Assembly (NCBI GenBank): GCA_009602735.1
Contig: WELA01001035.1
Span: forward strand, 13,498 to 77,497
DNA from: Mesotaenium endlicherianum
Lineage: Eukaryota
Direction: 5' to 3'
DNA length: 64,000 nt
Positions 1 to 24,428 of the stretch are shown here, piece after piece. Below the pieces are notes generated by a model. The model saw nothing but the letters and a program-made list of their open reading frames with translations, had not been told where the DNA came from and did no database searches. The position numbers were made by a program, and so were the translations under genes. The stretch's first letter is position 1; the number at the start of each line of letters is the position of its first letter.

Positions 1-750
1 ACCACCTGCACCGGTTTGCTGGGATCATACACGGCTAGCACTGGGGCAGAACAAAGGGCATCTTTAAAGGTCTGGAAGGCAGCCTGCTGCTCTTCCCCCC
101 ACACATACCCTATGTCTTTCTTAGTAAGGTCAGTCAGTTTACTGGCCTTTGTGGAATAATTCTCAATAAATCTCCTATAGTATTTAGCCAACCTGAGGAA
201 GGATCTAACTTCAGAGACAGACTGTGGTACTGGCCAGTCCCTTATGGTCTGGACTTTCTTAGGGTCCACACTGATGCCCTCTTTACTGACAACGTGGCCT
301 AAGAATTCAATACTTTCCTTAAAAAAATCACACTTGCTCATTTTAGCATATAACTGATTTCTTCTCGGAATGTCCATGATTGTCTTTAAGTGTTCAGCGT
401 GCTGAGTCTCATCTTTATATAAAATTAAAATATCATCCAGGAAAACTTGCACAAACTTATCCAAATAAGGTGTGAAAATGTCATTCGTAGCACCCATGAA
501 GGTCGCAGGAGCATTAGTCAGTCCAAATGGCATCACGTTGAACTCATAGTGTCCATAACGTGTGCGGAAGGCGGTCTTGTGTTCATCCCCCTCAGCAACT
601 CTGATTTGATGATAACCACTCTTGACATCTATCTTAGTGAACACCTTAGCACCAGACAGGGTATCAAGCAAGTCCCCGATTCTGGGTAAAGCATACTTGT
701 TCTTTACTGTAATTCTGTTCAGGGCTCTATAATCCACACACATCCGCAAG
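1..750 (-). pseudogene. pol: Ty3/gypsy family A reverse transcriptase fragment, inverted relative to the neighbouring copy; runs off the left edge
   Basis: Manual minus-strand translation gives [22 protein letters not shown]...GYHQIR...[12 protein letters not shown]...VFLDDILI...[18 protein letters not shown]. It is closely similar to 751-1430 on the plus strand. Confidence 0.85.
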
Positions 751-3353
751 GAATCAAGGACTTGCTTTAAACCTTGTTTGGTGCTAAGGTGTTCAGTAAG
801 ATAGATCTCAAGAGTGGTTATCATCAAATCAGAATTGTTGAGGAAGATGAACACAAGACGGCCTTCCGCACACGTTATGGACACTATGAGTTCAACGTGA
901 TGCCATTAGGACAGACTAATACTCCTGCGACCTTCATGGGTGCTATGAATGACATTTTCAGACCTTATTTGGATAAGTTTGTGCAAGTTTTCCTGGATGA
1001 TATTTTAATTTTCTCTAAAGATGGAGCTCAGCACACTGAACATTTAAAGACAGTCATGGACACTCTGAGAAAAAATCACTTATATGCTAAAATGAGCAAG
1101 TGTGATTTTCTTTAAAGTATTGAATTCTTAGGCCACGCTGTCAGTAAAGAAGGCATCAGTGTGGATCCTAAGAAAGTCCAGACCATAGGGGACTGGCCTG
1201 TACCACAGTCCGTCTCTGAAGTTAGATCCTTCCTCAGGTTGGCTAACTACTATAGGAGATTTATTGAGAATTATTCTACAAAGGCCAGTAAATCGACTGA
1301 CCTTACTAAGAAAGACTTAAGGTATGTGTGGGGGGAAGAGCAGCAGGCTGCCTTCCAGACCCTTAAAGATGCTCTTTGTTCTACCCCGGTGCTAGCCGTG
1401 TATGACCCCAGCAAATCGGTGCAAGCGGTCACTGATGCCTTTGACTTTGCCATGGGTGCTATTTTGTTGCAGCCTGTAGTGAAACAGATAGATAAAGTAC
1501 TTAGTGAAATATAATACTTTGAACACAAGTGTTAGCTTCTTGAAAGGAGAGATGGCTTCTTGAAAGTTAATATATTTTTGGATTTTGGCAAGTACAAGAG
1601 TGGTTTTGGAATGTCTTTCTATGTTCTAGCTCTTGTTACATAAGTAATTTTTAGGAAGGTGTATGTTGATGTGTTGGCACCCAACACATCCCAAAGCTTG
1701 CCACCTCTTTCTAGAATAATGTACATGTCCTTTTGACCTAAAAATGGCACATTTGACTTTTGCCACGTGGAGTTCTTCTAGGTCTTTTCTCTAACTTTGA
1801 AAATGCCTTAGAAGGTTCAAAGGACATGAACCAAGTCACTAGAGTACCTATTCACACTTGAATCCACACAATACCACTCAAATATATTTGAAAACATTTA
1901 AATATATAAAACTAATATATAATAACTCAAATCACTACACAGCCTGCTGACAAAATCACAAAGGATGGTAAGGTACGGCAGGAGTGACATCCTGTGTTGT
2001 ATGAGTCTATGAAATTTAATCCAGCGGAAATTAATTACTCAGTGCATGATAAAAGCTGCTAGGTGAAATAGTCCTTCCTTGAACAACTTAGGAAAGCTTA
2101 CCTTTCTGACCCAACATTTGAGCCCAGCCCCACTACTGGTGCGTGTCGTGCTACTGCATTCAGGTATAAGCATAAGGGAGGGGTTTGGGTGACTGAAATC
2201 ACTTCAGGCAGGCCGAAGCTGGTCATTCATAAAAACTTGGAAATAAGGTCCCTTTTATTGAGTCAAGCACATGATAGTTTGCTGGGTGGGCATTTGGGGC
2301 AGGCCAAAACTGTTGGCAAACTGGCAAAACATTATCATTGGGAGGGATTACCTCGGGAGGACTTGAAATACGTTAAATCCAGTGACCAGTGTCAAAAGAA
2401 CAAGTCTAGGCACACACCACCAGGTGGCCTCTTACAACCGCTGCCCATCCCAGCTGGCCGCTGGGAAACACTATCCATGAACTGGGTGGTCACACTGCCA
2501 ATGGGCATGATTCGATACTGGTAGTTGTGGATAAACTGATGGGCAGACTGAAAGAACTAACAGAGTTCTGCAAGAGGTGCTGCGAGCGTATATTAACCAA
2601 AAACAAGATAATTGGGATGACCTGTTACCTCAAATCCAGTTTGCGGTCAACAGTGCGGTGCACGCGTCAACGGGCAAGACTCCTTTTGAACTAAGCCTGG
2701 GTAGAGTCCCTAAGTCTCCTTTAGATGTCTTAGGGGAGTCCTTAACTCACCCTGCAAGGATTGACAATCCAATCTCCCTCCAGTTAACTCAAGAGTTTTA
2801 TGACACCCTGTCAGAAGTCCAGCAGAACCTGCACAAAGCCCAAGAAAACCAACAAAAGTACGCTAATCAGCACTGTCGAGAACTGACCTTTTCTAAAGGC
2901 GATTTGGTCAAACTGCATTCTCAGCACCTGTACCTCCCTGGTGTGGTCAAGAAAGAGCTTGGCCCTGTCTGGGTCGGCCCATATTCGGTGGTGCGCCGTG
3001 TCGGTCAAAATGCTTACAAACTGAACATGTCAGCCAAATACAAGGGTCATCCGATCTTTAATGTCTCCTTCCTGGAACCATACATCAAAGGTGATACACT
3101 GTTTACAGGTCGGTTACCTGTCCAACCGGGACCGGTCCCCGCTGTCCGAGACGCCGACCCTGAGGAATATGAGATTGAGGAGATTTTAGACGCGCGCTCA
3201 ATCCGTCAATCATCTAAATATGTCACGAAGGACCTTATTCGATGGAAGGGTTACGATGCCTCTGGGGACACTTGGGAATTTAAAGATCATTTGACTAATG
3301 CCAAAGGGGCGTTGAAACGGTTCTACCTTCGGGCGGTTGGAGCACCTTCCTAA
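751..3353 (+). pseudogene. pol: Degenerate pol (RT, RNase H, integrase, chromodomain) of A1
   Basis: ORFs 774-1115 (VFLDD), 1161-1514, 2189-2524 (zinc-finger region HDSLLGGHLG) and 2577-3353 (GPY motif; chromodomain EYEIEEILDAR...RWKGY...DTWE). Frameshifts and internal deletions relative to A2. Confidence 0.9.
1475..1939. mobile_element. Solo LTR of family C
   Basis: TGTAGTGA...TCACTACA termini and a perfect 5-bp TSD CAGCC (1470-1474, 1940-1944). Homologous to 33170-33689 and 42824-43325. Confidence 0.93.
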
Positions 3354-3621
3354 CAATCATTTCAGTTGACACGGGAAGGTGACAGGAGTTGGAAGGGGAA
3401 ATACATGACAATTAGTGTGCGAGAGCGAGGAAGGGACAGTTATGTGAACCCTAAGTCATACGTTTATGTCTAGCGCACCGCAACTACGTCAACTCCTAGC
3501 AATCACCCTGTAAGGTAAACAGGAACGAATATACCATACTAATTCAAACTTACTCCCTTCCTGCAACTCCTATGACAAAGGTCGATATCCTACTAACTTG
3601 TGCCCTGGTTACATGTGCAGA

Positions 3622-4626
3622 ATGGCTCCCACCACACAAAAAGAGGACAGAAAGCGCAAGGCAGAAGAAGTCAGGAGGACAATGGAGCAATACCAGAAGG
3701 AGTTGGTGGCAACGTCCCTCACCAGAAGAGAACAAGAAAGGGTCCGCAAACAACAAGAGGCGACAGAAGAAGCACAGAGGAAGAAGGATCAGGAAGCGGA
3801 AAACCTCAGGAAAGCTGAGGAGGAGAGACAGAAGAAACAACAAGAAGAAGCGGCAGCGGCAGAGGAGGAGAGAAGGAAAAAGGCTGAAGCGGACAGGCAG
3901 AAGAGCTTGGCCACTTACAGGTATACTGTGGTGGATGGCCAAAACTTTGATAACCTGAAGAAAGCATTGCTGGCAGCCCACGAGATCAACAAGCTGGAAC
4001 AGACAACACTGCTACAGAAAGAAGGAGCTGCAGCACTGGATAGGTACATTGAGACACACACTGGTGTGGTCCTCTACGAAGATTATGCCAAGATGGTGGG
4101 CTATGCAGCAGAGCAGGCCCGGTACCTTGCAGATGATTCAGAGAACAAGCCGGTCCCAATATCGGGAATAGTGGGAGATCAGAGACTCATCAGGATGGTG
4201 AGCATGCGGCCCGATAGCTTTAAGGATGCGGTATTCTACCTCACACTATTGCCAGCTTACAATGAAGTTGAGAGAAGGAGCTGGGAGTACTTGGCCAGGG
4301 AAGCANAAGGAGGCAGGACAGCAGATGTTCTCTCCCCATTGGTTCCCATGTAAATTGAGAAAGGCTGAGCATGGATCCCAATATTACCAGAAGCCAACAG
4401 ACTGGAGGTGGATGACCGTCACAAACAAAAAGCAGGAGTGTGACCGAGCCCAACCAGACGATTTCCACTATGGCCTAGACGGCTACCTCATCCTACCACC
4501 TCACATTGCCCCTTGGGACCCCAGGCTGAATGGCTGCCTGAGCAATATGAATGCAGAGACCAAAGAGCACAGGAGGAGGGGGTCTGAGGGAAAGCATGCC
4601 TTTGTCAAATGGGCAAAGCATGCAAG
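3622..4626 (+). CDS. Accessory ORF of family A (coiled-coil N-terminus plus unknown globular domain), 5' part
   Basis: ORFs 3598-4353 and 4226-4639 are joined at the N at 4306. Homologous to 23561-24428 plus 30298 onward (YNEVERRSWE, TDWRWMT, PPHIAxWDPRLNG, GKHAxxKWA). Confidence 0.7.
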
Positions 4627-4772
4627 TGTCGTGCGTTAAGAGATCGGGTGCGCCTTGTAGGCATAAGCAGCACACAATAGACAAGCAGGCTTTGCTGCAA
4701 TGAAGTCTATAAAATGGCTTTATAGCCAAAGAGGGAGTCAAGCGTCAAATGTTTTAATTCCCCCCCCAGCTC

Positions 4773-5618
4773 TCAGCCTCTAGCTGATGGGCTGTGTACG
4801 CTGCCTAAGGCTAGCTCAGAGCAGTCTTTGCAGAACCAGTCGTCAGCGGGCACGCGGGCCAGCGGCGGGTCGAGGCAGCCGATGTGGAAGCCGAGGTTGC
4901 AGCTGTCGCAAAGCAGCATCTTGGCCTCCTGGCCAGGGCTGTGACAGATCTGGCACGCCCAGTCCTTGGGCGGCCGCGCGTCGCGGGGACGGACCTGCAA
5001 GTCCAGGTTAGGAAGATGGCACGGCCCACAGTTCTTCGTGTGGTCCCTGTGAAGACGGCCATCTGCGCCTTCCAGCTCCAGGACGCCTGACGCCAAGGCA
5101 CGCTTGACGCGCAGGATGACCGGCGAGCTGCTGGTGTCGAGGGTGTTCTTCGTCTGGCGTCGCAGGTACACAAAGTCGCCTGCGGAAAACTGCAACACCC
5201 ACGGATGATAGGCTCCTCCACGAGTCATGGCGTACCTCAGTGTGTCGCGATGTTGTGCGATGCTGAGGTTATCCATGGCCATGGGCATCAGGCGCCGAAA
5301 GAGCTGAGCACGTTGCCCGATAAGAGCACTCCATGTGTCGGGACTGTCCAAGTCCAAGACGTTCTCGGCCACCGTTCTGGCTGCTGCTGGCAGGATGGGC
5401 TGTCGGCCGTAGAGAAGGAAGTAGGGAGAGTGCGAGGCCAGGGAGGCCTGCTTACTGAACCTGTACCCCATCGCCAGCCAAGGGAGGGCGTCGTCCCAGT
5501 AGGTACGGTCGTGGGCAAGGCAGTACTTCTGCAGCCCTAGCTTGACGGTCTGCACCATGCGCTCGGCGAGGCCGTCAGCCTGAGGATGATCGCGGGAGGT
5601 GGTGCAGTGGTCGATCAT
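4773..5618 (-). CDS. Integrase C-terminal half with terminal PHD finger (4821-4955)
   Basis: HPQADGLAERMVQTVK integrase motif; C4HC3 pattern CQIC...LLCDSC...FHIGC...WFCKDC. Confidence 0.9.
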   Translation of the reverse strand: MIDHCTTSRDHPQADGLAERMVQTVKLGLQKYCLAHDRTYWDDALPWLAMGYRFSKQASLASHSPYFLLYGRQPILPAAARTVAENVLDLDSPDTWSALIGQRAQLFRRLMPMAMDNLSIAQHRDTLRYAMTRGGAYHPWVLQFSAGDFVYLRRQTKNTLDTSSSPVILRVKRALASGVLELEGADGRLHRDHTKNCGPCHLPNLDLQVRPRDARPPKDWACQICHSPGQEAKMLLCDSCNLGFHIGCLDPPLARVPADDWFCKDCSELALGSVHSPSARG

Positions 5619-5626
5619 AGAGCGCT

Positions 5627-8338
5627 CTACTCCTTGCCCTGGTCGGTCAGCACCTCAGCGCAGCCGCCAAAGCGGCTAAGGACCTGATTGAGGAAGGCCT
5701 GCGCGATCCCCTCACTGGCCTTGCTGGGCAAGGGCACGAGCTCGATCCACTTGGACATGTGCTCAATCATCACCAAGACGTAGAGGTTGCCCTGGCGGGA
5801 CTTGGGCAGCTCTCCAGCCAAGTCAAGCAACCACCTGTAGAACAGCCCCTGAATAGGAAGAGGGCTGAGGGCAACGGTGCGCGCTGTGAAGCTCGAGCGC
5901 ACACGGTCGCAGAGAGTGCAGCTGCTGACGACAGCGGCGACGACCTTAGTCATGCCGTGCCACCAGTACTCGGCCTGAAGAAGACTGAGGGTGCGCTTGA
6001 CACCGAAGTGCCCGAGGGACTCGTGCACTCGGCGCACCAGCTGACTGCGTATGGGAGGCTCAGGGACCACCAGGATGGAGCCGTCCGCCATCACGCGCCT
6101 CACGTGCCCCTCCATGAAAATGAAGTCGCGGCTGCGTCTGAGGATGCGGTCGCGCTCGCGTGCGCTGACATCGGATGCCAAATCCTTGGCCGTGACGTAC
6201 TGCAGTACTGGGGCGTCGTCCCACACGTCCTCGGGACCGCGCTGCCAGCTGTCCTGGTCCTCTGCCGCTGCCAGGGCCAATCGCCGAGTGGTGACGGTGA
6301 CCTTGTCCAGGCTAGTGAGCCTTGCGGGTCGTACATCGCCGTCCACGGTGAAGGCCAGGAAGGCCGCCGCATGCCAGGCTACCGGCTCATCCTCATCGTG
6401 GTGAGCCACAGTGAGATCCCTCGAGGAGGGCAGCGGGTTACGGCTGAGACCGTCAGCGTCCAGGTTGGTCGAGCCTGGACGGTGGTGCACGTCGAAGGTG
6501 TACTCCTGCAAGATAAGCGCCCACCGTGCGTACTTGCCGGTCAAGCGCTCCGACATCATGAGCCACTTAAGTGGCTGATGGTCGGTGACCAGGCTGAAGT
6601 GCGTGCCGTCGAGATAGTGCCTGAAGTGCACGATTGCCCAGACTGCTGCCAGGCACTCCCCCTCGTAGGAGCCATAGTTGCCTTCCGCGCGGTTGTTGCT
6701 GCGGCTGGCGTAGGCCACCACATGCTCGAAGCCGTCATGCTCCTGCACCAGCACAGCGCCCAGCCCTGCCTGCGACCAGTCGGTGTGGAGGATGAAGGGC
6801 TTCGCGTAGTCAGGACGACAAAGCACAGGAGCGCTCACCAGCAGCTCCTTGAGCTTATCGAATGCTGCCTGCTGCTCTGGTCCCCATACGTAGGCAACGC
6901 CCTTGCGGAGCAAATCGTTGAGCGGCTTGGCTAGCTCACTGAATCCTGGCACGAAGCGGCGGTAGTAGTTGGCGATGCCGAGGAAGGCCCGTAGCTGCGC
7001 AAGATCTGTAGGAGGTGGGATGCCTGTGATGGCCGAGATCTTCGCCAGCTGGGGTGCCAAGCCGCTGGAGGAGAGCAGGTGGCCAAGGTACTCCACCTCG
7101 CGGGTCCCAAAGGTGCACTTGCCTGGGTGGCACTTGAGCCCAGCGGCCTCCAAGCGGTCCAGGACGGTAGTGATGTGCACCACGTGCTCCTCAAACGTCT
7201 GACTGAAGACAAGCACGTCATCGATGTAGCATCGGGCAAAGGACAGCCCAACCAACTCCTTATCCATCACCCTCTGAAAGGTAGCTGGCGCGTTCTTCAA
7301 CCCGAACGGCATCACCACCCACTCGTAGAGCCGCTGTGCTCCCCAGAACGCCGTCTTATGCTGGTCCTCCTCGGCGATGGGAATCTGGTTGAAGCCCTGA
7401 CGCAGATCCAGCACTGAGAACCAAGTGCACATGCCAATGTCGTCAAAGATCTCGTCAGGCGTCGGCATAGGGTATCTGTCCTGCTCGGTGACCTCGTTCA
7501 GCCTACGATAGTCACTGCACATCCTCTTCTCGGACCAGTTGCCCGAGGCATCCTTCTTGGCTGGCATGACCGTGGGTGCGGCATAACGAGAGGAGGACTC
7601 CCAAATGAGCCGGTTGTCCTCCAGCTTGCCTGTCTGCGCGCTGATCAAGCCATCCTCGAAGTGGCTGTAGCGATAACGCTTCAGGAAAATGGGCTCCTGC
7701 AACGTGAGAGTAATCCGCATGGGGTCCCCCCGATAGCGCCCGAGATCGTGCATGCCGCTGGCAAAGCTGGTGCGACGCCTCTCGTCCAGCAGTGCCGTCA
7801 ACTGTGCAGCCTCTGCCGTGGTGAGTGTCCCCCCCAGCTTCCATGTCGGTGGAGCTGGTGGCGTCGCCTGGCCTGCTGGAGTCTCCTGTCTTGCCGCTGG
7901 GGTAGACTCTGGTGCTGCAGGTGTCACTTGCCCTGCAGCGGCTGGCGCTCGGCCTGCCGCGGGTACCTGCACTGTGGCAGTTGCGACCGGCTGCCTGGCA
8001 CCATCTGCCTGCGAGCGATCGTCTGCCTGCAAGCGAGGAAAAAGAAAAGGTGAGTGGGACTCCCTGGGTTGCTGTGAGGACTCCTCTCTCCGCCGGGACT
8101 CCCTGGGTCGCTGTGAGGACTCCTCTCTCCGCCGGCCCCCCCCCAGCAAACCAGAGTCCTCCCCGCGCGGCGGCGGAGAGGGGGGGCGGGTGCGCGCTTG
8201 CGGTGCAGGCCCTGCACGTCGATGATGCCACGTCGTGCCGGGCGGGGCCTGATTGTTATCATCGGTGGAGTCATCGTCCATATCATCGGCAGGCCGAGGG
8301 AGCTCGGGATGCCGGGCTGCGGCGTAGAGAGGCGCCAA
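5627..8338 (-). CDS. pol: Linker, reverse transcriptase, RNase H and integrase N-terminal half of element X
   Basis: RMCSDYRRLN, LDLRQGFNQI, MPFGLKNAPATFQR, YIDD, LHTDWS, TDHQPL, HESLGH...CTLC, LDLAG, TDQG. Confidence 0.95.
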   Translation of the reverse strand: MAPLYAAARHPELPRPADDMDDDSTDDNNQAPPGTTWHHRRAGPAPQARTRPPSPPPRGEDSGLLGGGRRREESSQRPRESRRREESSQQPRESHSPFLFPRLQADDRSQADGARQPVATATVQVPAAGRAPAAAGQVTPAAPESTPAARQETPAGQATPPAPPTWKLGGTLTTAEAAQLTALLDERRRTSFASGMHDLGRYRGDPMRITLTLQEPIFLKRYRYSHFEDGLISAQTGKLEDNRLIWESSSRYAAPTVMPAKKDASGNWSEKRMCSDYRRLNEVTEQDRYPMPTPDEIFDDIGMCTWFSVLDLRQGFNQIPIAEEDQHKTAFWGAQRLYEWVVMPFGLKNAPATFQRVMDKELVGLSFARCYIDDVLVFSQTFEEHVVHITTVLDRLEAAGLKCHPGKCTFGTREVEYLGHLLSSSGLAPQLAKISAITGIPPPTDLAQLRAFLGIANYYRRFVPGFSELAKPLNDLLRKGVAYVWGPEQQAAFDKLKELLVSAPVLCRPDYAKPFILHTDWSQAGLGAVLVQEHDGFEHVVAYASRSNNRAEGNYGSYEGECLAAVWAIVHFRHYLDGTHFSLVTDHQPLKWLMMSERLTGKYARWALILQEYTFDVHHRPGSTNLDADGLSRNPLPSSRDLTVAHHDEDEPVAWHAAAFLAFTVDGDVRPARLTSLDKVTVTTRRLALAAAEDQDSWQRGPEDVWDDAPVLQYVTAKDLASDVSARERDRILRRSRDFIFMEGHVRRVMADGSILVVPEPPIRSQLVRRVHESLGHFGVKRTLSLLQAEYWWHGMTKVVAAVVSSCTLCDRVRSSFTARTVALSPLPIQGLFYRWLLDLAGELPKSRQGNLYVLVMIEHMSKWIELVPLPSKASEGIAQAFLNQVLSRFGGCAEVLTDQGKE

Positions 8339-8359
8339 GGCTTGCGTCTGCAGCAGAAT

Positions 8360-9305
8360 CCATGTGAGGACGTTGGCGTCGATGGCCTACCCCAAGAGGC
8401 GAATGCGGTTCACCTCAGTGAGACCGTCCACCTGCGTGAGATGCGGCGGAAAGCCCATGGCACGCTCCATCTCTGCAGGGCGTGGCCTGTCAAACATGCC
8501 AGTCTCCAGGTCGATGACCATCCCTCGCTGATCTCCGACGAAGGCGTCGCTGTCATAGCGGCTGACAAAAGTCGGCAGCGCGCGAGTGACGTCATGCAGG
8601 ACCTCACACTGCGCCATGGAGGGATGTGGCAGCGCCGTCACGCGCTGGGCCAGACGAGGGGCATCGAGGATGGAGTCGACGGTGCGTGTGTGACGTGGAT
8701 GAGAGGCGGCCAACGCCTCGAGAGTACCTGGCATCGCCAAGTTTGTGAAGTAGGCGCGGACGCGGTGCGCGAAGGAACCAATCTGGGCAGCGTCGATGAC
8801 GGCCTCGCGGCCAACGTAGCTGCTGCAAAGAGCGAAGTCGGCGCTAACATCGGGACGGCGATCGTGGCGTGCGGCCATGTTCTCCAGGACCCACGCGAGT
8901 GTGTGTGGCGGCTGGCGCTCCTCAACAATGTTGAGGACGCGGAGCAAGTGCCAAAAGAGGGCCGTGCGGGGATCGCTGAGCGCCCTGCCACGCCCGGCTC
9001 TGGAGAAGCCCTGGCACTCCCAGCCGGCGATGACGAGATCAACGGGCCCAAGTCGGGTGACATGCTCGACGGTGATGTCGCGGATGTCCATGGGCTAGTC
9101 TGTCTGAGCGCGGCGGAATGCGTGCGCGGGAAGGAGGTCAAGGAATCGCTCGTGGCCCAACGCCATCTGTCGACGGGCCACCTGCTGGGCCTGTGGATCG
9201 GGATCGACGTAGACGTAGCGGCGCACCGTGATGCCGGCCTGTAAGGTCGCGAGTAACCCGGTGGCGATGCCCGCAAAGAGCTCGACGAGGACGATGCCGC
9301 CAGGT
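8360..9305 (-). pseudogene. DNMT3-like C5 cytosine DNA methyltransferase domain embedded in pol (two in-frame TAG stops)
   Basis: Ordered motifs: I VELFAGIATG, III DIRDIT, IV GPVDLVIAGWECQGFS, VI WVLENM, VIII AHRVRAYFTNL, IX EMERAMGFPPHLT, X RIRLLG*AID. Stops at 9095-9097 and 8387-8389. Same frame as the RT ORF. Confidence 0.92.
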
Positions 9306-9684
9306 CGCTCGTCCAGAGCGTCTGCGCAGATAGGAGTCGGAAGTGGGCGACACCCCACGGCAGAGGTGCCGGGCTGAGCGGGCGGTGAGAAGGTACGCTT
9401 GGCGCTGTGCTGATGTGGCGCCATGCGGAGGGCGGCCACAGCATGGTCTGTGTAGTCACGCGTAAGGTTGGGGATGCGGTCAGTGAGCGGCTGCGGTCGC
9501 TCTCCCCGTGCGTGGTCCTGGTAGGTGCGCCACCGCAGGCGCGCATCCTGCAGGGCTGTGGGAGAGACAGCGCGGGCCTGACGTCGGGCCGAGGCCACGC
9601 ACAGCTGCTGCCACCTGTCGCGCTGGGCGCGGTCAGTCTGGTGCGAGGCCGCGTGGGCCAGCTGGTCGAGAACGGGACGCTGAG

Positions 9685-11037
9685 TCAAGTAGGGGTGCGG
9701 GTCGAAGTAGGCCCGCTGGCGTGCGCGCATGTCTGCAGAAGGGACTGTGCAAACGGAGCGCTCGGAGCTGTCGACCTCCTGCGGGGATCGAACCAGCCGG
9801 CGAGGGGCCAGCTGGACTCGCGGCTGGGGCTGCCCTCGTGGGACGGGCGCGTCCCGGGCTGCCGGAGACTAGACATGAGCCGTGTGCGTGCGGCAGCCGT
9901 AAAGGGGTGACGACTGGGCGGCCTGCTGTTGGTGCGGGCCACCTTGGGAGGAGGTGACCCGGAGGGACCGTCGCCAGCGATGTGGCTGCGAGGGACGCTG
10001 ACGCGCGGAGCTGTAGGGGCCAGCATCGCGAAATGCGCCTCGGAAGAAGACTGAGCGTCGTCGCCAGCTGAGAGGGACCGGAAGGGCGGAGTGCGGCGTC
10101 GGTCTCGAGGGTCGTCGTATGGTGGCGTGTCCCCGTGGGTCCGCGTGTTGTCGTAAGGAGGTGTGCGGTCCCTGTCGTCGTAGGGTGGCGTGACGAAGCG
10201 GGCGCGCGTCTCGCGGAGGGGAGTCACCTCTCGCGCCTCGCAAAGGGGTGTGAGCGATCGGGAGCGGCTCGTCTCGCGGAGAGGAGTGGTCTCTCGAGCG
10301 GGTCCGATGGTCGGCCAAGTGCGATGTGCGTAGGTCAGATGGGCGCAGATAGACGGGGTCGTGCGGCGTGGCTCGCGGACGCTGAGCCTGGGCGCTGGTT
10401 GCTGTATGGAGTGTGTGCCAGCGCTAGAGGAGGCCGCGGCAGCCCGGCTTGTCGGAAACAAATGTGCGATGCGGCGACACTCGTGGCTCGTCGAGCAGTT
10501 GTGTGACACTGGTCGGCTGGGTCCAACGGCATCGGTGCGAGCCCTGTTGGGCCAGTCGTGAGTCATGGGCTGACTGGGTGCGCTGAAGCCAGGCGGACCA
10601 GTAGGTGTGCGCCGCCTGCGTGTTGTAGGCGCAGCTGGCGGGGGCTCCTCGGGTGGCGCCGCGCTGAGGGCCTCGACGGAAGCCTCTGGCAGTCGTTCCC
10701 ACTGCGTCTCCTCCTCACTTGTGTGGGACTGGTCGTCGGATCTGCCAGGACAAGTTGCCTGCCGCATGGCCTCGTCTTCGGATGCCGTGGGGCGAGGCCA
10801 GGTCTCGCCGGTCTGATGCGAGGTGTTGTGCAGGGGCGGCTGAGAGTCCATATTGTACTGAAGGGCCACGCCAACAGGCACATCGTGGCGAACGCGGACG
10901 TCGGTCCTCGCGGACGGTTCGCCTCGAGTGGCTGAGACCCCCCCCTGATGAGTCGTAGGCGCTGCGACTGCACCGCGGGCAAGGGCGGCGGCAGCGATTG
11001 GCTGTGCTGGCCGTGGCAAGGGCCTCAGTGGCATCAT
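9685..11037 (-). CDS. Pro/Arg/Ser/Thr-rich linker between protease and DNMT, with TPLRE and TPPYD repeats
   Basis: 450-aa ORF lying between the protease and DNMT ORFs. Needs frameshifts at both ends to join them. Confidence 0.5.
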   Translation of the reverse strand: MMPLRPLPRPAQPIAAAALARGAVAAPTTHQGGVSATRGEPSARTDVRVRHDVPVGVALQYNMDSQPPLHNTSHQTGETWPRPTASEDEAMRQATCPGRSDDQSHTSEEETQWERLPEASVEALSAAPPEEPPPAAPTTRRRRTPTGPPGFSAPSQPMTHDWPNRARTDAVGPSRPVSHNCSTSHECRRIAHLFPTSRAAAASSSAGTHSIQQPAPRLSVREPRRTTPSICAHLTYAHRTWPTIGPARETTPLRETSRSRSLTPLCEAREVTPLRETRARFVTPPYDDRDRTPPYDNTRTHGDTPPYDDPRDRRRTPPFRSLSAGDDAQSSSEAHFAMLAPTAPRVSVPRSHIAGDGPSGSPPPKVARTNSRPPSRHPFTAAARTRLMSSLRQPGTRPSHEGSPSRESSWPLAGWFDPRRRSTAPSAPFAQSLLQTCAHASGPTSTRTPT

Positions 11038-11269
11038 CCACCATCTGCCGCATCATCGCGCTGTGGGCAGTGCAGATGCGGATCTGCTCCCTGGCCTGGG
11101 CTGCCAGGACATCCGCCTGCTGCTGCGGCGTAAGATGGAGCTCGGCACTAGGTAGGTCCGGCTCCTCGTCCTGAGACTCGAGCAGGTCCACCCCCACAAA
11201 GATCTCCTCGTCCTCGGGCCCGTCCTTATCGGTCTTGACCACTGGCCGGCCATCGTCCAGCCCCATGAA

Positions 11270-11720
11270 GCCATAAAGAGCGGACACTGCTGGGCGGCGA
11301 TCGACAATGTCAAGGGGCAAAGATGCGGTGCGCGTCCCTCCTGTCCTCCATTCGGGGCGATAGAAGTCGCGCTCTGCCCAGTTGTCGACCGCGGCGCCAA
11401 TGGGAAAGAGCACGTCCTGCCCTAGGAGCACATCAAAGGACTCGGAAGGAGTGACGAGTGCGTGCCGATGGATGGTCGTCTCGTCTGCCGTGCCTGGGCG
11501 CAGAGTGAACAGTAGCGCCAACCTCGTGCGGCCGGCAACGGTCTCGGACGTACCGGCGGCGGTGTTAATGCGCGTCGGAGAGTCCTCCAAGTCAGCAGAA
11601 GAGAGTCCCAGCTGACGGAAGTAGCGGAGGGTGATGAGGACCGGCTGTGTCGAACATGATGCGCTGCGGCGCCTGGGTGTTGACGAGCACGATCCCCTGC
11701 GAATTATCCAAAAACGCGGC
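11270..11720 (-). pseudogene. Retroviral-type aspartic protease of element X, frameshifted at the catalytic motif
   Basis: RIMFDT at the end of ORF 11592-12668 continues after a small deletion as QPVLITLRYFRQLGL...INTAAG...FDVLLGQDVLFPIGAAVD (ORF 10715-11590). Confidence 0.8.
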
Positions 11721-11991
11721 GTTAGGAGTGCTGATCATTCTGCGCTCATGCGCAGGGCGCGCGGGCGTGGATCGCACCGCGGTGGCGGCATCGGCCGTCG
11801 GTCTCCTGGCGGCGGTGCGCAGCGTGGCTCTGCGTGACTGGAGCATCAGCTGAGCGGCCTGCCTTGTTGCCTCCATGGAGACGCCGAGCTCTGCGAAGGA
11901 GACCGCCGGCATGCGGTGCAGCGCCAGAGAGATGACCTCCGCGCTGAGCTGTACCGTCGTCATAGGTGAAGCGAGCGCATGAGGCGTCGGC

Positions 11992-14900
11992 TCAGCTGAG
12001 ATCGTGGAGGGATCTAGGATGCGGAAGGAACGGGGCAGCCGCGGTGTCTCCTCCGTCCGGCGTCCTTGGTCTGGCCCGACGCGCTTCTGCGGAACAACGG
12101 GCCGACTGGCCGGTGCGGCGAGCGTGTGCTCGCGGCTCGCGCGCCCGACTGTGGAGCGGTTGCCGAGTGGCTGCGCGCGTGCGCAGCAGGCCAGAATGGC
12201 TGCTGCTGGCGCAGCCGGCAAACTTGCCGCGCATCCGGCCGCGGGGACTGTAACAGTGCCGTCTGCGAAGCCTGCCGCGAGGCCTGCCGCCGCGCCTGCC
12301 GCACAGCTCGCAGCAAGGTCTGCCGCAGCGACTGTTGCGAAGCTTGCCGCGAGGGCTGCCGCGGGACCCCGTCGCAAGGTCTGACGCTGCGCCTGCCGCG
12401 CAGCTGGTGACGGGAACTGCCGTCGCGCCTGCCACGCATTCTGCCGCGCAGACTGTTGTACTGTCTGCCGCAGGACGCGTCGCGAGGCCTGCTGCGCAGC
12501 CTGCCGCGCAGTCTGCCGTACTGTCGGTCGCAGGACCTGTTGCGCAGCCCGCTGCAAGTCCTGCCGCCCAGCCTGTCGCAAGGTCGGTTGCGCAGCCTGC
12601 CGCAGGTTCGGCCGCCAAAATGGCGAACCTCGGCGCGTGTGCGTTCGCGGCTGCAGCAGTAGCTGCATCTGCTGGCGCGGTCGAGGCTGCCAGGAGGCTG
12701 CCAGGTGGCGCCCCCTGGTGGCTGCTGGGGCCGAAGGGCAGGGTCACTGGGCTGGTGGCGCCGTCTATCTCGGCTGCCCCGGGCAAAGATCGCAGCGCCC
12801 TCCCCCCGATGCATGGGCTAACTGGCCCCCCGGCGGCTGGCGTTGGGTTGCTGCCGGGGTTTTGTGCGCAGCCAGGGTTTAGGCCCTGGCTGTGCGCAGC
12901 CGTGAGCGGACCGTCGGCACTGCGATCGGTCATCCGGCCGCGTGGCGCAGTTGGGACAGCCCCCCCCTGACTGAGGGTGGCTGGTCCGACCGCCAGATTT
13001 GTGCTGGCCGGGCCAAGCCATGCGCGTGCGCCAAGTGGCGGCATTTGCGCGACAGGGGCTGAGCCCTGGATGTGCGCAGCTGCGGGTGCGCCGTCGGCGC
13101 TTTTGCCGGCGATCCGGCCGCACAGCGCAGTCAGGACCCCCCCTTGCTGACCGAGGGTGGCGGCCGCTGCGGCCGTCGCTGCGCTGGCCGTGCAGACCTG
13201 CGCGCACGCGCCACTTGGCAGCGCGTGGGTGCAGCTGCTTTGCGCAGCTGCAGCTGCCGCTGTGACGACGGCGTGGCGTCGCCGGGTGTGCCGTGGACCT
13301 GGCAGCGCAGTGCGCTGGGCGCGCGTGTGAGCCAGCGTGCGTGCGTGCATGCTGCTGTCGGCAGAGGCGGCCTCGCCTGCCGTGCACGTGCCATGTGGCG
13401 GGTTCTGCTGGAGCCTGCTGTCTGCAGCAGCCAGCGGGGACCGGCTGTCCCTGCCTGTGCGCAGAGCTGCGCACGGGAGTGCCGCACGAACGAAGAGGGA
13501 GGCTGCGGCCGGCCCAGTTGTAGCCGTGCACGCCGCCAGGTGCCCCCGTCCCTGCCTGCCAGCTGTCGCTACGCGGGCCGACGGGAGGCCTGCTGGTGCC
13601 AGCAGGGAAGCGCAAGCCAGGGGCTCTGTCGGGGCCTTGGCTGGCGCGCGGGCTGGCCCGCGTGCGCGCGAGCTTGCGCCGGGAGATGGCGCAACCGCGC
13701 AGTCGTGCAGCCTTCCATCCGGCAGTCTGTCGGGACTCCGGCTGTCGCTGCTGACAGCTGTCAGAGCGGTGCGCACAAGGCTAGCAGAGCTGCCTGTGCG
13801 AGCGCCTGCAGCTCTGGCAGCGGGCGCTACGTCGTAACGCGGACGTGCGCGGGGCTGCGGCGCTGCCGCTGAGCCTGATGTGTACGCTGAAGCTGTGCGT
13901 GAGCCAGCTGTCAGTTCTGTGGCGTAGGACGGTGGAGCGAACGCGAGGAGTGCTCCGCACGCGTCATAGTCATCGACGTCGATGAGGCCACGGAGTCTAG
14001 CGATCTCCGCGTTGGCCTCCACGAGGGCGTCGCAGACGTCGTCGAAGCTGCAGTAGTCGGCTCCAGGCATCAATGCGGCGTCCGTCGTGGCCGTAGCTGC
14101 TGTCAGCGCGGGGCGGCCACCCGTACGAGGGTTGCGTGCGCCTCGCTGTCCTGCTGAAGGCGTAAGGCCGTCGCGAGCGCGTCCGTTCTTGACGTCGCGC
14201 TTCTTCTGCAGACAGACGATCTGTAGGTGGCCGACCTTGCCACAATGGGTGCACTCGCCGGGCTTGCCATTCTGCGCGAGAGTGCAGTTCTGGCGTGAGT
14301 GGCCCATCTTACCGCAGGACCAGCAGGGATTGCTCGTGGTGGCAGCCATGGAAATGCGGCCACGCGTAGCTCCGCGCTGCTGCGTCTGCTGGGGCAGCTG
14401 AGAGCGCTGAGGCTGCTGCTGCTGCGACTGGGGCTGGCGGGCAGGCGTCGTGCGCGTCGTAGAAGACGGCAGCACTGAGGCCTCCTGGCGCACGCCCGTG
14501 GATGCTAAGCCCACACGATCGCTAATGTTGCTCCGTGCGGCGGCCAAGCTCTGCTTCTCAACGGAGAGGTAGGCCTGCTCCAGAGAATACTCTAAACCGT
14601 GGCGGTCGATGAGGGGGACTACGGCCCTCTCCCTGAGACGCGGCTCGACGGCACGCAAGAAGGTCTCCGCGGCCTCCCGGTCAGTGACGGTGCCGACATC
14701 GCGGCGGAGGTGCACCAAGCGGCGGTACATCATGCGGATAGTCTCGTTCTTGCGTCGGAAGAAATGGTGCAGCTCGTACACCTTCTCTTCAGTTGCAGCC
14801 TGGAACTCTGTCTTCAGGATGTTCCAGAAGGCTGGCACTGGATCAGCAAGCAAGGTCGCCACTGGTGGGTCACCCACAAGCTCAGTGCGGGTTCGGAGCT

Positions 14901-15297
14901 CAGCCTCCTTCTCACGGAAGGTGTCGCGGGCCTCGTGCGAGAGGTAGCGCATAAGCGTGTCGAAGACGTCGCGCTTAGTCAACGTGGGTGTCTTGAGCTT
15001 TGCAGCCGCGAAGTCAGCCTGAAACTCCGAGATGGTATCTTCCAGATCACAGGTGCCTGGCCTACCGCTGAAGCGGTAGGCAGACCTGTCAATCCTGACC
15101 TCGTGGTCACCTGCCATGGGATACCAGAAATCGTAGTGAGCCCACTGGGGAGAAGGCTCAGAAGCAACTGCTGTGTGCTGGAGAGCAGGTCGCTCTTCTT
15201 CAGCGGGTTTTGTGATGGTGCTGAGATCTGAGTCTGAGTCTTCTCCACTGACCCCTTCGTAGTATGGCTGATAAGAAAGCCCACTACGGGTAGGCAT
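11992..15297 (-). CDS. gag: Gag with two CCHC zinc knuckles and a long Ala-rich extension
   Basis: CWSCGKMGHSRQNC and CTHCGKVGHLQIVC; capsid-like segment FRRKNETIRMMYRRL; position upstream of the protease. Confidence 0.85.
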   Translation of the reverse strand: MPTRSGLSYQPYYEGVSGEDSDSDLSTITKPAEEERPALQHTAVASEPSPQWAHYDFWYPMAGDHEVRIDRSAYRFSGRPGTCDLEDTISEFQADFAAAKLKTPTLTKRDVFDTLMRYLSHEARDTFREKEAELRTRTELVGDPPVATLLADPVPAFWNILKTEFQAATEEKVYELHHFFRRKNETIRMMYRRLVHLRRDVGTVTDREAAETFLRAVEPRLRERAVVPLIDRHGLEYSLEQAYLSVEKQSLAAARSNISDRVGLASTGVRQEASVLPSSTTRTTPARQPQSQQQQPQRSQLPQQTQQRGATRGRISMAATTSNPCWSCGKMGHSRQNCTLAQNGKPGECTHCGKVGHLQIVCLQKKRDVKNGRARDGLTPSAGQRGARNPRTGGRPALTAATATTDAALMPGADYCSFDDVCDALVEANAEIARLRGLIDVDDYDACGALLAFAPPSYATELTAGSRTASAYTSGSAAAPQPRARPRYDVAPAARAAGARTGSSASLVRTALTAVSSDSRSPDRLPDGRLHDCAVAPSPGASSRARGPARAPAKAPTEPLACASLLAPAGLPSARVATAGRQGRGHLAACTATTGPAAASLFVRAALPCAALRTGRDSRSPLAAADSRLQQNPPHGTCTAGEAASADSSMHARTLAHTRAQRTALPGPRHTRRRHAVVTAAAAAAQSSCTHALPSGACAQVCTASAATAAAAATLGQQGGVLTALCGRIAGKSADGAPAAAHIQGSAPVAQMPPLGARAWLGPASTNLAVGPATLSQGGAVPTAPRGRMTDRSADGPLTAAHSQGLNPGCAQNPGSNPTPAAGGPVSPCIGGRALRSLPGAAEIDGATSPVTLPFGPSSHQGAPPGSLLAASTAPADAATAAAANAHAPRFAILAAEPAAGCATDLATGWAAGLAAGCATGPATDSTADCAAGCAAGLATRPAADSTTVCAAECVAGATAVPVTSCAAGAASDLATGSRGSPRGKLRNSRCGRPCCELCGRRGGRPRGRLRRRHCYSPRGRMRGKFAGCASSSHSGLLRTRAATRQPLHSRAREPRAHARRTGQSARCSAEARRARPRTPDGGDTAAAPFLPHPRSLHDLS
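12260..12620. repeat. Degenerate 12-bp tandem repeat (GCCTGCCGCGCA-like) encoding a 4-aa periodic A/G/C/T tract
   Basis: Visible periodicity; translation GCATDLATGWAAGLAAGCATG... Confidence 0.7.
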
Positions 15298-15482
15298 ACG
15301 CTGAAGGTTCTAATTGCTTGAAGGCAAAAAGAGATCCTTTAGAAGTAAGGGATGTGTACTCTCCAGAGTGAGCACCTCAAGACTGTAATCTGGTAGGAAA
15401 ACAACTAAAGTATGGCCCAATAGATCACTGGAAGCACATCATGATCTTCAGAGTAGTCCTATGGCAAGGGCTTAAGCTGTGA

Positions 15483-15494
15483 CTTTGCTCACCA
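15483..15494 (-). promoter_or_regulatory. Candidate primer-binding site of element X (TGGTGAGCAAAG)
   Basis: On the minus strand TGG begins 2 nt after ...TTCACA, about 190 bp upstream of the gag ATG. It differs from the initiator-Met-type PBS of families A-C. Confidence 0.55.
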
Positions 15495-15496
15495 CT

Positions 15497-16292
15497 TGTG
15501 AAGTTCTTCAAGTGACTGGAAGCCTGGAGGGCTTGCTCTTCACAAGAGAGTAACTAAGTGGTCCTGAAAACACAAGAGATAAAAGTGTAAGCTTTACTGA
15601 TAATCTCTGTTACTTACACCTGGCATAATGGACTTCTAAAAGATGTCTCTTCTAGGGACATCTCTAGTATTTATACTCCTGGAAATCCGGCGGGTTACGC
15701 GGCGGATCCAATGCATGTAGTCATTCTAGGAGGCTCTCCTATGTCCACTAATGTGTACAAGGCATGTACTAGCACTCCTATAGGCTAGGCATTACTCAAA
15801 CCAATCAAAGCAAGGTGCGTAGGATATGCTACATGTCCCTCATTGGCCGAGCTTACCTTGGGTGGTTCTACCTAGATAGCGCCTCAAAAGTGGATCTGAA
15901 AATTGAGGAAGCTTCCTCTAGGAGTAGGTGATGCAGTCACCAAGTTATAGCCTCAATGATGCACATATACTATGGAAATGCAAAGCTTATGTAGGCTAAG
16001 GGGCTCGCGGATTTGTGCGCACAAGCTAGGGGTTTTAGGGGGTCACGAATAGGCAAGAATGTGCACATCGAAACACACATTGCCCTTTGGTGAGGATCCG
16101 CTAGGGGCCGGTAGGTGACGCGGACTAGATCGCTCATATCTCGGGCGATACATGACCAAATGACGCGAACCCGGTGCCATTCGGAAGGTGACTCGACGCG
16201 CTACACTTTGGTGACTTGGAAATTGAGAAAAGGTCAACATATGGATGCGTAAAGTCTATGCAAAGTCGGCCTTCCTAGGTTGATGGTTCACA
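15497..16292 (-). repeat. Candidate 5' LTR of element X
   Basis: TGTGAA...TTCACA 6-bp inverted termini, minus-strand TATAAATA near 15666-15673, followed by the candidate PBS. No second copy in the window. Confidence 0.5.
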
Positions 16293-16342
16293 CATGTGGA
16301 GCTCGGTTACGTGCGGCAACCTCGACTCAATAAATCATGACA

Positions 16343-17020
16343 CAGGCCGCATAGATATCAGCAGGCTGAAGGCCAAGCAACCTCCAGCGCGTCCTAAGAA
16401 AGGGAAGTCAGTAGACTACTCCATGTCTACCACGGAGCAGGACAACTTAGTTGACGAGACTCCTTCTCTCTCAGAGGAGGAGGATGAGGAGGATGACGAA
16501 GAAGAACAAGGCAGAGGAGAAGCATCGGGAGCTGGTACTCAGGAGACCCAGGGGCAGGCAGGGGCACTTCCTAAGGAACCAAGATCAGGTATATGGAACG
16601 TGATCCCGGTCATGGAGGCAATTGGACCCCGCACGCTCCCCCAGCCCACCTGCCCAAGCAGGGGAAGAAGCTGATCTGACAGTACTTGGCAGCAGACACA
16701 GGCAGAAATCCCTAGAGGATAGGGGTTTCAGAAGAGGGACACGCGGGGTGGTCAGAGGTATGCCGGCCTCCCCCTTTGCTCAGGAACATGTACCTCTTGC
16801 CAATGTATTTCAGCATCCTACTGGAATGCCTGTCTAGGTGGGGATCAACACCCAAGTGGGTGAAGGGCAGGCTACCATTCTTCGTTCTCCTCGAGGCCCA
16901 ACTTTAGAACAAACGGGGTTCTTTAGAAGGCCAGCTGACAGATCTAGAGGGCTGTCCAGATCTAGGTCCAGATCTCAGTCTCCTGATCCTGAAGCCCCAG
17001 GAACAACCCCCTAGGTGACA
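16343..17020 (+). pseudogene. Accessory ORF of A1, 3' part (acidic tract, RS/P-rich tail)
   Basis: QPPARPKKGKSVDYSM and an E/D-rich tract match 30469-30640 (QPPPTPKRGRSVEYSF; EEEEESEAEEEE). Confidence 0.6.
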
Positions 17021-17126
17021 GGCTCAAGAGGCAGTCAGTGGGGGAGGCTGGCCAGGATCAGTTCCCTTGCTTAAGACTTCTGCAGTTTAATGTTGTCGAG
17101 GCGACAACAAGTTAAGTTGGAGGGAT

Positions 17127-23560: not shown

Positions 23561-24428
23561 ATGACGCAGAAGTCAGAACTTAAGAGGGAAAGAAGAGCAG
23601 AAGAGGCACATGCAAAATACTTGCAATTCCGTGGCAACATCGAATCATCCTCCATCTCCGCTCGGGAATCACAACGATTCCAACAACAGCGAGAGGCACA
23701 GAAGAAGAAGAAGGAGGAGGAATAGGCCAGGCTGAGGCGGGAAGAACTGGACAGACAAGCTGCAGAGGAGGCCAAGAAGGTAGAGGAGGAGAGGCAAGCT
23801 GAGGAGAGGCGGAAGCAGCAGGCTGAAGAAGAAGAACAGAGGAGAATCAGCAGCTACCGCTACACAATGCTGGGCAAGGGCTTTGATCTACTGGAGGAGG
23901 CCTTCAAGTATGCCCAGAGAAGTCGCAGTGAGTTGCAGAAGGAAATCCTGCAGAGGGAGAAGGAGACATCTGAAAACTTTGACAAGTGTATAGAGGTCAG
24001 CACAGGACTCTTTTTCTACCATGATTATGCCGAGATGGTAGGATATTCGGTCAGAGAGGCCAAGGCAATGGCCCAAGTGAATGAGGAAGGAGCTGTATCG
24101 ATTTCGGGTATCTGGGGGAATATTGGGATCATCAGGATGATCTCCATGGATGCGGACAGCTTCAAGGACTCTACATCACATAACAGGTTCAAGGCCATGT
24201 ATAATGAGGTGGAGAGAAGGAGCTGGGAATTCTACGCCAGGGAAACCAGTCAGCTGGACTTTGCAGGGCACTGGTACCCTTGTACGCTGAAAAGGACAGA
24301 TCTTGCCTTCTTCCAAAAGTCCACCGATTGGCGGTGGATGACTATCAACATGAGGGACCAGCAAAATGACAGGGCAGGGGAGGAAGATTTCCTAACAGAC
24401 CTATAGGGGAACATAGTATTGCCCCCTC
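23561..24428 (+). pseudogene. Accessory ORF of A2, 5' part (continues at 30303 to about 31118 after nested B1)
   Basis: ATG at 23561 is in frame with ORF 23867-24406 across one TAG. Homologous to 3622-4500. Confidence 0.7.

What the first reader, a model, noticed from the sequence alone, without database searches (positions are those of the whole stretch)
8360..9305. Ty3/gypsy retrotransposon encoding a DNMT3-like cytosine methyltransferase inside its pol polyprotein
Seen: an ordered set of C5-methyltransferase motifs (ELFAGIATG; GPVDLVIAGWECQ; WVLENM; AHRVRAYFTNL; EMERAMGFP; RLLG) lies between the protease and RT. It is in the same frame as the RT ORF, interrupted only by two TAG codons (9095, 8387). 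Known: these motifs closely parallel animal DNMT3 (LFDGIATG, GPFDLVIGGSPC, WLFENV, AHRARYFWGNL, EMERVFGFP, RLLG). From memory, DNMT-carrying retrotransposons have been reported in dinoflagellates and the charophyte Klebsormidium, so the class is rare rather than unprecedented; this family and host may be new. Inference: the enzyme would be packaged with RT and could methylate the new cDNA or the insertion site, an element-encoded epigenetic system. This copy is disabled.
Basis: partly seen in the sequence, partly recalled or inferred. Interest (0 to 1): 0.92.

Follow-up and report, generated by a model that had tools for sequence, protein, structure and literature searches.

The report
Methyltransferase-carrying retrotransposon with permuted ends
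This is a dead copy of a jumping gene from a green-plant-lineage genome that carries a DNMT3-type DNA-methylating domain inside its polyprotein, a kind already reported in one alga, and its family has rearranged ends that suggest it likely inserts from a DNA circle rather than from the usual linear copy.

Summary
In detail: a C5-methyltransferase domain (PF00145; best solved relatives DNMT3A/B/C) lies between protease and RT of a Ty3/gypsy pol, with two TAG stops.

Three things go beyond the papers I could read. (1) The family is large: 309 protein clusters at E<=1e-10, with named hosts Closterium, Mesostigma and Scenedesmus, and dN/dS 0.07-0.18 on the domain. (2) In a second clade the domain sits between RNase H and integrase. 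(3) The ends are permuted. The element (4627-16342, TG..CA, 4-bp target duplication) has no LTR pair. A relative reads A-internal-B-GC-A-B. The polypurine tract precedes B and a self-priming site follows A, so the LTR that RT copies is B-GC-A, while insertions end at an internal palindrome (CACGACA-GC-TGTCATG; 11 of 35 loci, 3 of 1750 shuffles).

Likely mechanism: integrase opens LTR circles at this palindrome, and the methyltransferase marks the new cDNA. Neither step was tested. This copy has several frameshifts, and three RNA runs gave no reads on the domain.

The parts
4627..16342 (-). Whole element, 11,716 bp, TG...CA ends, form A-internal-B, no LTR pair
   Evidence: Empty-site joint 4622->16343 in contigs of X1, X4, X6, X8 and X18; no long repeat between the ends
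16343..16346 (-). Target-site duplication, 5' copy (4 bp, one mismatch to the 3' copy)
4623..4626 (-). Target-site duplication, 3' copy
15346..16342 (-). Segment A (997 bp): starts TGTCATGA, holds a TATA box (15668-15675), predicted start site 15644, R and U5
   Evidence: depth about 2-3 times the internal region in 4 DNA runs; sense RNA reads mostly below about 15645
15334..15346 (-). Predicted self-priming primer-binding site, complementary to 15632-15644 (13 bp, one G-U)
   Evidence: same arrangement with 17 bp in L145
11992..15117 (-). gag (capsid-like 14617-15090, two zinc knuckles about 14210-14330) and long low-complexity linker with 12-nt repeats
   Evidence: tblastn to P0003/P0004; repeats
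11270..11713 (-). Aspartic protease, frameshifted at the catalytic motif
   Evidence: gapped contigs of X4 and X8
8354..9300 (-). DNMT3-type C5 methyltransferase domain; catalytic Cys in GWECQ; TAG at 9095-9097 and 8387-8389
7067..7741 (-). Reverse transcriptase (YIDD at 7228)
   Evidence: PF00078 E 1.4e-31
6482..6901 (-). RNase H
   Evidence: PF17917 E 3.1e-36
4980..6170 (-). DDE integrase (HHCC, core), frameshifted near 5627
   Evidence: PF17921, PF00665
4820..4955 (-). PHD finger at the integrase C-terminus
   Evidence: PF00628 E 7.3e-12; PDB hits KMT2D, KMT2C, CHD4, UHRF1 and others
4759..4767 (-). Polypurine tract, directly before segment B
   Evidence: sequence; same place in 12 loci
4627..4758 (-). 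Segment B (132 bp): starts after the PPT, ends CGCACGACA
   Evidence: joints 4758->15346 and 16342->4627 with GC between in family contigs

Best explanation
This is a disabled copy of a Ty3/gypsy retrotransposon whose pol carries a conserved DNMT3-type methyltransferase and a PHD finger, and whose family likely integrates from LTR circles opened at a palindrome inside the LTR, with the methyltransferase predicted to mark the new cDNA. Shown: domain order; purifying selection on the domain; ends at TG..CA with 4-bp duplications; PPT before B; a self-complementary primer site after A; the forms A-internal-B and A-internal-B-GC-A-B. Inferred: (1) RNA starts in A and primes itself. (2) RT makes linear B-GC-A-internal-B-GC-A. 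(3) Ends are joined to a 2-LTR circle, or a 1-LTR circle forms. (4) Integrase cuts CA|GC|TG, drops GC and inserts. A 2-LTR circle gives the replicating A-int-B-A-B form. A 1-LTR circle, a cut at both sites of a linear copy, or later B-B recombination gives the dead-end A-int-B form seen here. (5) The protease frees the DNMT in the particle and it methylates cDNA cytosines, probably CG, as camouflage or self-restraint. My odds: identity as a KnitGypsy-Dnmt3-type element 0.9; integrase acts at the internal palindrome 0.85; circle route 0.6; cDNA methylation 0.5.
For: Domain. Catalytic Cys invariant in 13 of 13 aligned sequences; G[FW]xC in 136 of 150 best representatives. Selection: dN/dS 0.07-0.18 in 7 of 19 pairs; 4 within-family pairs gave 0.38-0.55, like their RT; 8 were saturated. 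DNMT and RT share one open frame in 20 of 40 loci. Ends: empty-site joint and both family joints. L145 is a complete A-int-B-GC-A-B with AAGG duplication and the same 8 and 9 terminal bases as the window, at 35-39% DNMT identity. L131 has a CACA duplication. Palindrome 3' of PHD in 11 of 35 loci against 3 of 1750 shuffles, and 58-213 nt after a G-run in 12 of 52 loci of 5 kb or more. 0 of 8 distinct insertions of the L145 family start with B. The A|B joint varies as end-joined circles would: one base between in L145, part of the primer site kept in L123/L131, a 7-base variant in RNA reads. Precedent for integrase cutting palindromic 2-LTR junctions: PMC1180852 (abstract). Control: an ordinary gypsy element in the window has paired LTRs with TG right after the PPT.
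Against: No circle, cut or methylation was observed. The Klebsormidium domain was inactive in yeast (PMC5890265). Motif IV is GW[EP]C, not the usual PC. The window element is not CpG-depleted; most relatives are (0.27-0.78, one 0.95), but without same-host controls. No RNA read fell on DNMT in X22-X24 (6-12% of each run read), and no B-GC-A joint was listed in raw RNA. A 2-LTR circle has two palindromes, yet the mirror form A-B-GC-A-int-B was seen in 0 of 8 insertions, which the simple model does not explain. 24 of 35 loci lacked the palindrome, many with short 3' sequence, and L113 has a normal PPT-TG LTR start, so the trait is not universal. Loci are not independent. All 20 open-frame loci are of the second architecture; open PR-DNMT-RT examples are database proteins only.
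Confidence: 0.62

Rival explanations
1. The ends are made without a circle: the transcript runs through A2 and B2, and an unusual, DIRS/PAT-like pattern of strand transfers gives linear A-int-B-A-B, which integrase processes normally at TG..CA.
For: The layout equals the split direct repeats of DIRS-type elements (PMC5890265 figure legends). It would explain why only A-first insertions are seen (0 of 8 start with B). The A|B joint is mostly precise in the window family, and polyA RNA reads cross A|B.
Against: PPT and primer site sit where a standard B-GC-A LTR predicts. A|B joints differ between copies and one keeps primer-site bases. A conserved palindrome at the internal B|A joint would have no role. 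The RNA reads over A|B do not continue into gag (depth 0.24 or less at 14926-15326), which fits solo A-B remnants.
Confidence: 0.22
2. The DNMT3-type domain is kept for a role other than methylating cDNA, such as binding DNA or chromatin with the PHD finger, methylating the insertion site, or protecting one of the two att palindromes (which hold CG and CAG/CTG).
For: No activity in yeast for the Klebsormidium domain. Family-wide W[EP] in place of SP before the catalytic Cys. No CpG loss in this element. In one clade the domain sits directly before integrase. The CG in the att site is conserved across hosts.
Against: Catalytic Cys, the EN motif, the motif VIII Arg and the SAM-binding motif I are all conserved. 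DIRS-borne Dnmt3 domains methylate CG de novo (PMC5890265). Most relatives are CpG-poor and TpG/CpA-rich.
Confidence: 0.3
3. The domain came from a phage or bacterial DNMT3-like methyltransferase rather than from a host DNMT3.
For: With the single window protein, phage enzymes score up to 66.6 bits against 58.9 for DNMT3C.
Against: With the family profile DNMT3A scores 108 bits and the best phage enzyme 97. Motif VIII [AST]HRxR is in 130 of 150 element domains and 0 of 80 phage enzymes. QxRxR is in 10 of 150 and 78 of 80. E[RK]LQ is in 0 of 150 and 45 of 80. No tree with eukaryotic DNMT3 could be built here.
Confidence: 0.15
4. One-off capture of a host gene fragment, or a chance nesting of a gypsy body inside another element's solo LTR.
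For: The window copy is degenerate, and A and B are 44-47% GC while the body is 65%.
Against: 93 of the 150 best representatives carry other pol domains in the same protein. The A-internal and internal-B borders are covered in other runs. L145 and L086 repeat the layout in an unrelated family.
Confidence: 0.02

Closest known systems
KnitGypsy-Dnmt3 of Klebsormidium nitens (PMC5890265; main text parts 1-5 of 7 read, figures not seen, supplement text search found no mention)
   Same: Gypsy pol with a non-rearranged Dnmt3-type domain under purifying selection; repeats arranged like DIRS (A-coding-B-A-B) despite a gypsy domain set.
   Different: That paper's text gives no priming sites, att palindrome, TSD, PHD finger or mechanism for the repeats, and reports one host. 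Here: a wide clade, two positions of the domain, and an internal att site. No direct sequence comparison with KnitGypsy was possible.
SymbioDIRS-Dnmt3 and SymbioLINE-Dnmt (same paper); EpiLTRs and DAM-LTRs (bioRxiv 10.64898/2026.05.21.726589, passages read)
   Same: Retrotransposons carrying DNA methyltransferases in or beside pol; two domain orders also exist in SymbioDIRS-Dnmt3.
   Different: DIRS use a tyrosine recombinase. EpiLTR DNMTs are sister to DNMT4 and come with DAM and a chromodomain. This element has a DDE integrase, 4-bp TSD and PHD.
Foamy virus and HIV-1 integrase cleavage of palindromic 2-LTR circle junctions (PMC1180852 abstract; PMC1905944 search listing)
   Same: A DDE integrase opens a palindromic CA-nn-TG junction.
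   Different: There the palindrome is the joined ends of the cDNA and cutting restores the normal provirus. Here it lies inside U3, so integration permutes the genome.
Tf1/sushi self-priming LTR elements (mechanism recalled; mentioned in PMC2864245 passages)
   Same: Primer site right after U5, complementary to the first 11-17 nt of the transcript.
   Different: Tf1-type elements have ordinary paired LTRs and no methyltransferase.
Gypsy-7a_cRei and REM1 of Chlamydomonas (PMC9940879 passages; REM1 paper not held)
   Same: Green-algal gypsy elements with a PHD finger; the legend mentions LTR subparts and unequal LTR ends.
   Different: No methyltransferase listed; whether their ends are permuted could not be checked.

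Membership tests
C5 cytosine methyltransferase, DNMT3 type | Motifs I, IV (catalytic Cys), VI (EN), VIII, IX, X in unrearranged order | tested here: met
   motif IV is GWEC rather than PC, a family-wide trait
C5 cytosine methyltransferase, DNMT3 type | Closer to DNMT3 than to DNMT1, DNMT2, DRM or bacterial restriction methylases | tested here: met
   Profile bits: DNMT3A 108, DRM2 56-57, DNMT2 37-40, M.HhaI 35; Foldseek top hits DNMT3A/B
C5 cytosine methyltransferase, DNMT3 type | Nested in eukaryotic DNMT3 rather than among phage DNMT3-like enzymes | tested here: inconclusive
   Motif characters and profile favour DNMT3; the single-sequence score favours phage enzymes; no joint tree
C5 cytosine methyltransferase, DNMT3 type | De novo methylation activity | not testable with these tools
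   Needs an assay; the Klebsormidium relative was negative in yeast
Ty3/gypsy (Metaviridae) | gag, PR, RT, RH, IN order with DDE integrase | tested here: met
Ty3/gypsy (Metaviridae) | TG..CA ends and 4-6 bp target duplication | tested here: met
   (3 of 3 insertions with both ends)
Ty3/gypsy (Metaviridae) | Two full LTRs, bounded by primer site and PPT, at the ends of the insertion | tested here: not met
   No LTR pair in the window; permuted A-int-B-A-B in L145; L113 is canonical
KnitGypsy-Dnmt3 group | Dnmt3-type domain inside gypsy Pol under purifying selection | tested here: met
KnitGypsy-Dnmt3 group | DIRS-like repeats A-coding-B-A-B | tested here: met
   L145 complete, L086 and L088 partial; both joints present in the window family; the window copy itself is the reduced A-int-B
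KnitGypsy-Dnmt3 group | Same clade as the K. nitens elements by RT and DNMT phylogeny | not tested
   No Klebsormidium-named sequence came up
DIRS/PAT/Ngaro tyrosine-recombinase retrotransposons | Tyrosine recombinase and no target duplication | tested here: not met
   DDE integrase; 4-bp duplications

The most novel reading that the evidence does not exclude
A green-lineage-wide clade of gypsy elements has moved its integrase attachment site to a palindrome inside the LTR and must integrate through 2-LTR circles, forms usually treated as dead ends, giving DIRS-like split repeats by convergence; its DNMT3 domain, which moved once from before RT to before integrase, methylates the cDNA and may decide which of the two palindromes is cut.
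Probability: 0.45. Interest if true: 0.85.

Novelty: new variant of a known kind. Interest (0 to 1): 0.66.

Why it matters
If right, it is a natural LTR retrotransposon lineage in which circles are the integration substrate. That bears on the long-standing question of whether 2-LTR circles can be productive intermediates, and the element supplies a defined 16-bp site for testing it. It also turns a single-species curiosity into a large clade with hundreds of divergent DNMT3-type enzymes in streptophyte algae and chlorophytes, so the role of transposon-borne methyltransferases can be tested on many natural open-frame domains. Because these elements lack paired terminal LTRs, standard LTR finders would likely miss or misclassify them.

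Tried and rejected
No whole genome is held for the window, so no genomic copy census was possible.

Host: a MOS1/PRRC2-like gene gave only green-lineage hits (prasinophyte, Volvox, liverwort, ferns, lycophyte; 13 hits), and the Atlas was uninformative. The host stays unresolved; a streptophyte alga is my guess from gene style and named relatives.

No indexed RNA holder was listed. Three raw polyA runs with the same species label gave no reads on DNMT and no B-GC-A joint, so RNA did not test the transcript model. Whether other copies lack the two TAG codons was not visible, because the difference tables were cut.

Viral contigs gave 80 phage-type methyltransferases at 22-33% identity with no RT or integrase nearby.

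A DNA fold of the att site was no more stable than shuffles (z 0.01), so no hairpin role is claimed. The RNA folds used start points that I chose from the complementarity and TATA spacing, so they are partly circular.

C-to-T context in the window copy was CG 13, CHG 9, CHH 5 of 27 listed differences (p 0.006). These were a hand-picked subset of the top rows of about 1,146 and fit host silencing, not the element's own enzyme.

Literature: 'split LTR'+retrotransposon+gypsy gave 0 papers. 'split direct repeats'+gypsy+integrase gave 8, none on this by title or abstract. Searches gave no paper on permuted gypsy ends by title or abstract. The library lacks most subscription papers, Repbase Reports and theses; the REM1 paper was not held, and figures and supplementary figures of PMC5890265 were not seen. 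Earlier findings of this scan: none.

Full report
Observation. The six motifs are present on the minus strand between 9283 and 8390, in the frame of the RT-RNase H-integrase ORF 5627-8386, with TAG at 9095-9097 and 8387-8389. Pfam gives DNA_methylase for this stretch, and RVT_1, RT_RNaseH, Integrase_H2C2, rve and a PHD finger downstream. Homologues place gag at 14617-15090 and the protease at 11270-11713. Contigs of other runs differ from the window at those places.

The domain. PDB sequence search ranks DNMT3C/3A first (58.9 bits; DNMT2, DRM and M.HhaI under 30). A 13-sequence profile gives DNMT3A 108 bits. The AF2 model matches DNMT3A/3B best. Phage DNMT3-like enzymes score slightly higher than DNMT3C against the single protein (66.6 bits) but lower against the profile (97). 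Motif VIII [AST]HRxR occurs in 130 of 150 element domains and 0 of 80 phage enzymes. A host DNMT3 origin is therefore likely but not shown by a tree. The odd motif IV is a family trait, not decay: GWEC 74, GWPC 39 of 150.

The family. The stop-free piece found 1332 clusters at E<=0.001 and 309 at E<=1e-10; I examined the best 150. Of these, 93 carry other pol domains: 18 with DNMT after the protease or before RT, and 75 with it after RT/RNase H or before integrase; 57 showed the domain alone, 51 of them at most 600 aa. Among 80 metagenome loci, 29 are of the first order, 43 of the second and 8 undetermined. Named hosts are Closterium and Mesostigma for the first order and Scenedesmus PABB004 for the second. 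Trees used 31 elements: 30 kept from 43 after removing near-copies, plus the window. The second order is one branch by RT-RH (94/96) and by DNMT (93/98), and all 31 stand apart from the outgroups. One acquisition followed by one move of the domain is the simplest reading; the outgroups were few. dN/dS on the domain is 0.07-0.18 in 7 between-family pairs with dS above 1.3, 0.38-0.55 in 4 pairs of decayed sister copies (RT 0.40-0.66), and saturated in 8. In the window's own family, contigs of 4 DNA runs cover the domain, one spanning 8351-10192.

The ends. Contigs of five runs join 4622 to 16343. This defines an 11,716-bp insertion with TG..CA ends and a 4-bp duplication, yet the two ends share no repeat, while an ordinary gypsy element in the window does have paired LTRs. 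Family contigs join the end of the 5' segment A to the start of the 3' segment B (4758->15346), and the end of B to the start of A with GC between (16342->4627). Locus L145, from another family with 35-39% DNMT identity, shows the whole layout: duplication AAGG, A1, internal region, B1, GC, A2, B2, AAGG, with the same terminal TGTCATGA and CGCACGACA. The PPT lies directly before B. Directly after A lies a stretch complementary to the sequence about 30 nt behind a TATA-like box in A (13 bp in the window, 17 bp in L145; similar pairs in L094, L103, L104/L106 and L108). By the standard scheme of reverse transcription the copied LTR is therefore B-GC-A, but insertions stop and start at the palindrome inside it. 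The palindrome lies 3' of the PHD in 11 of 35 loci of both architectures against 3 of 1750 shuffles. In the L145 family 0 of 8 distinct insertions begin with B; after the PPT, B is followed by GC-A in L086 and L145, by flank in L097 and L102, and by the contig end in L134. L113 is an exception with a normal PPT-TG start.

Mechanism. A-int-B-GC-A-B is a circular permutation of a 2-LTR circle opened at the first palindrome with loss of GC, and A-int-B is the same for a 1-LTR circle. The variable A|B joints, one keeping part of the primer site, fit end-joining. Integrase cleavage of palindromic LTR-LTR junctions is reported for foamy virus (PMC1180852, abstract). This route is inferred; no circle was seen, and the absence of the mirror form A-B-GC-A-int-B is unexplained. 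The window's form lacks a 3' R region and would be a dead end even without its lesions. For the DNMT, cDNA methylation is the likeliest role: the domain is part of Pol, its catalytic residues are kept, and related DIRS-borne domains methylate CG (PMC5890265). Against this, the Klebsormidium domain was inactive in yeast, and this element keeps its CpGs (o/e 0.86-0.94 against 0.55 and 0.64 for a neighbouring chromovirus and a host exon). The PHD finger resembles those of KMT2D, CHD4, UHRF1 and PHF21A; several of these read unmodified H3 tails (recalled), so targeting of silent chromatin is plausible but untested.

Expression. In three polyA runs with the same species label as X2 (166, 610 and 272 reads laid; 6-12% of each run read) no read fell on DNMT. 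Reads lay mostly on A and B, across the A|B joint and on short integrase pieces, consistent with solo remnants in host transcripts.

Comparison and verdict. The DNMT-in-gypsy class and even the DIRS-like repeat layout were noted for KnitGypsy-Dnmt3 in 2018 (PMC5890265, text and Fig. 4 legend), and a 2026 preprint still cites it as streptophyte Gypsy-DNMT3. What I did not find in the searched library is the internal att palindrome, the self-priming layout, the second domain position or the chlorophyte members; Repbase, theses and most subscription papers were not searchable. The finding is real, a new variant of a known kind; interest 0.66.

Noticed in passing
window 1-1429: Large inverted duplication (arms 1-682 and 751-1429, 91-94% complementary) made of a gypsy RT fragment; a fold-back or an assembly feature.
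   Followed up: no
window 24422-30297 (+) and 34459-42540 (-): Two related ordinary gypsy elements (91% alike) with paired LTRs; the second holds two RT-integrase sets, the last with a chromodomain.
   Followed up: partly
window 3500-4622 and 16343-17080: The element sits inside another, higher-copy repeat (depth several times higher) with a coiled-coil-like ORF 3514-4353.
   Followed up: no
window 45600-56110 (-): Host MOS1/PRRC2-like gene (BAT2_N) with a 5.3-kb exon; hits only place the host in the green lineage.
   Followed up: partly
window 59500-63400 (+): Exons of a protein kinase resembling plant MAP3K-epsilon (name recalled, not tested).
   Followed up: no
window 15562-15856 and 5936-5976: RNA reads splice within segment A (GT-AG on the minus strand), and an abundant transcript carries a 41-nt integrase piece; probably exonised remnants elsewhere in the host.
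   Followed up: no
window 11992-14100 and 9400-11270: Gag-protease and protease-DNMT linkers are several times longer than in relatives, with 12-nt and TPPYDD-type repeats and uneven depth among copies.
   Followed up: no
L113 9030-9084 and 9855-9909: A DNMT-bearing relative with a canonical LTR start after the PPT and a CA-CT-TG joint between LTR copies; its clade may have kept or regained normal ends.
   Followed up: partly
L001-L080: Phage contigs encode DNMT3-like methyltransferases (for example VLSLFDGIATG in L003 and L005), useful as an outgroup for DNMT3 origins.
   Followed up: partly
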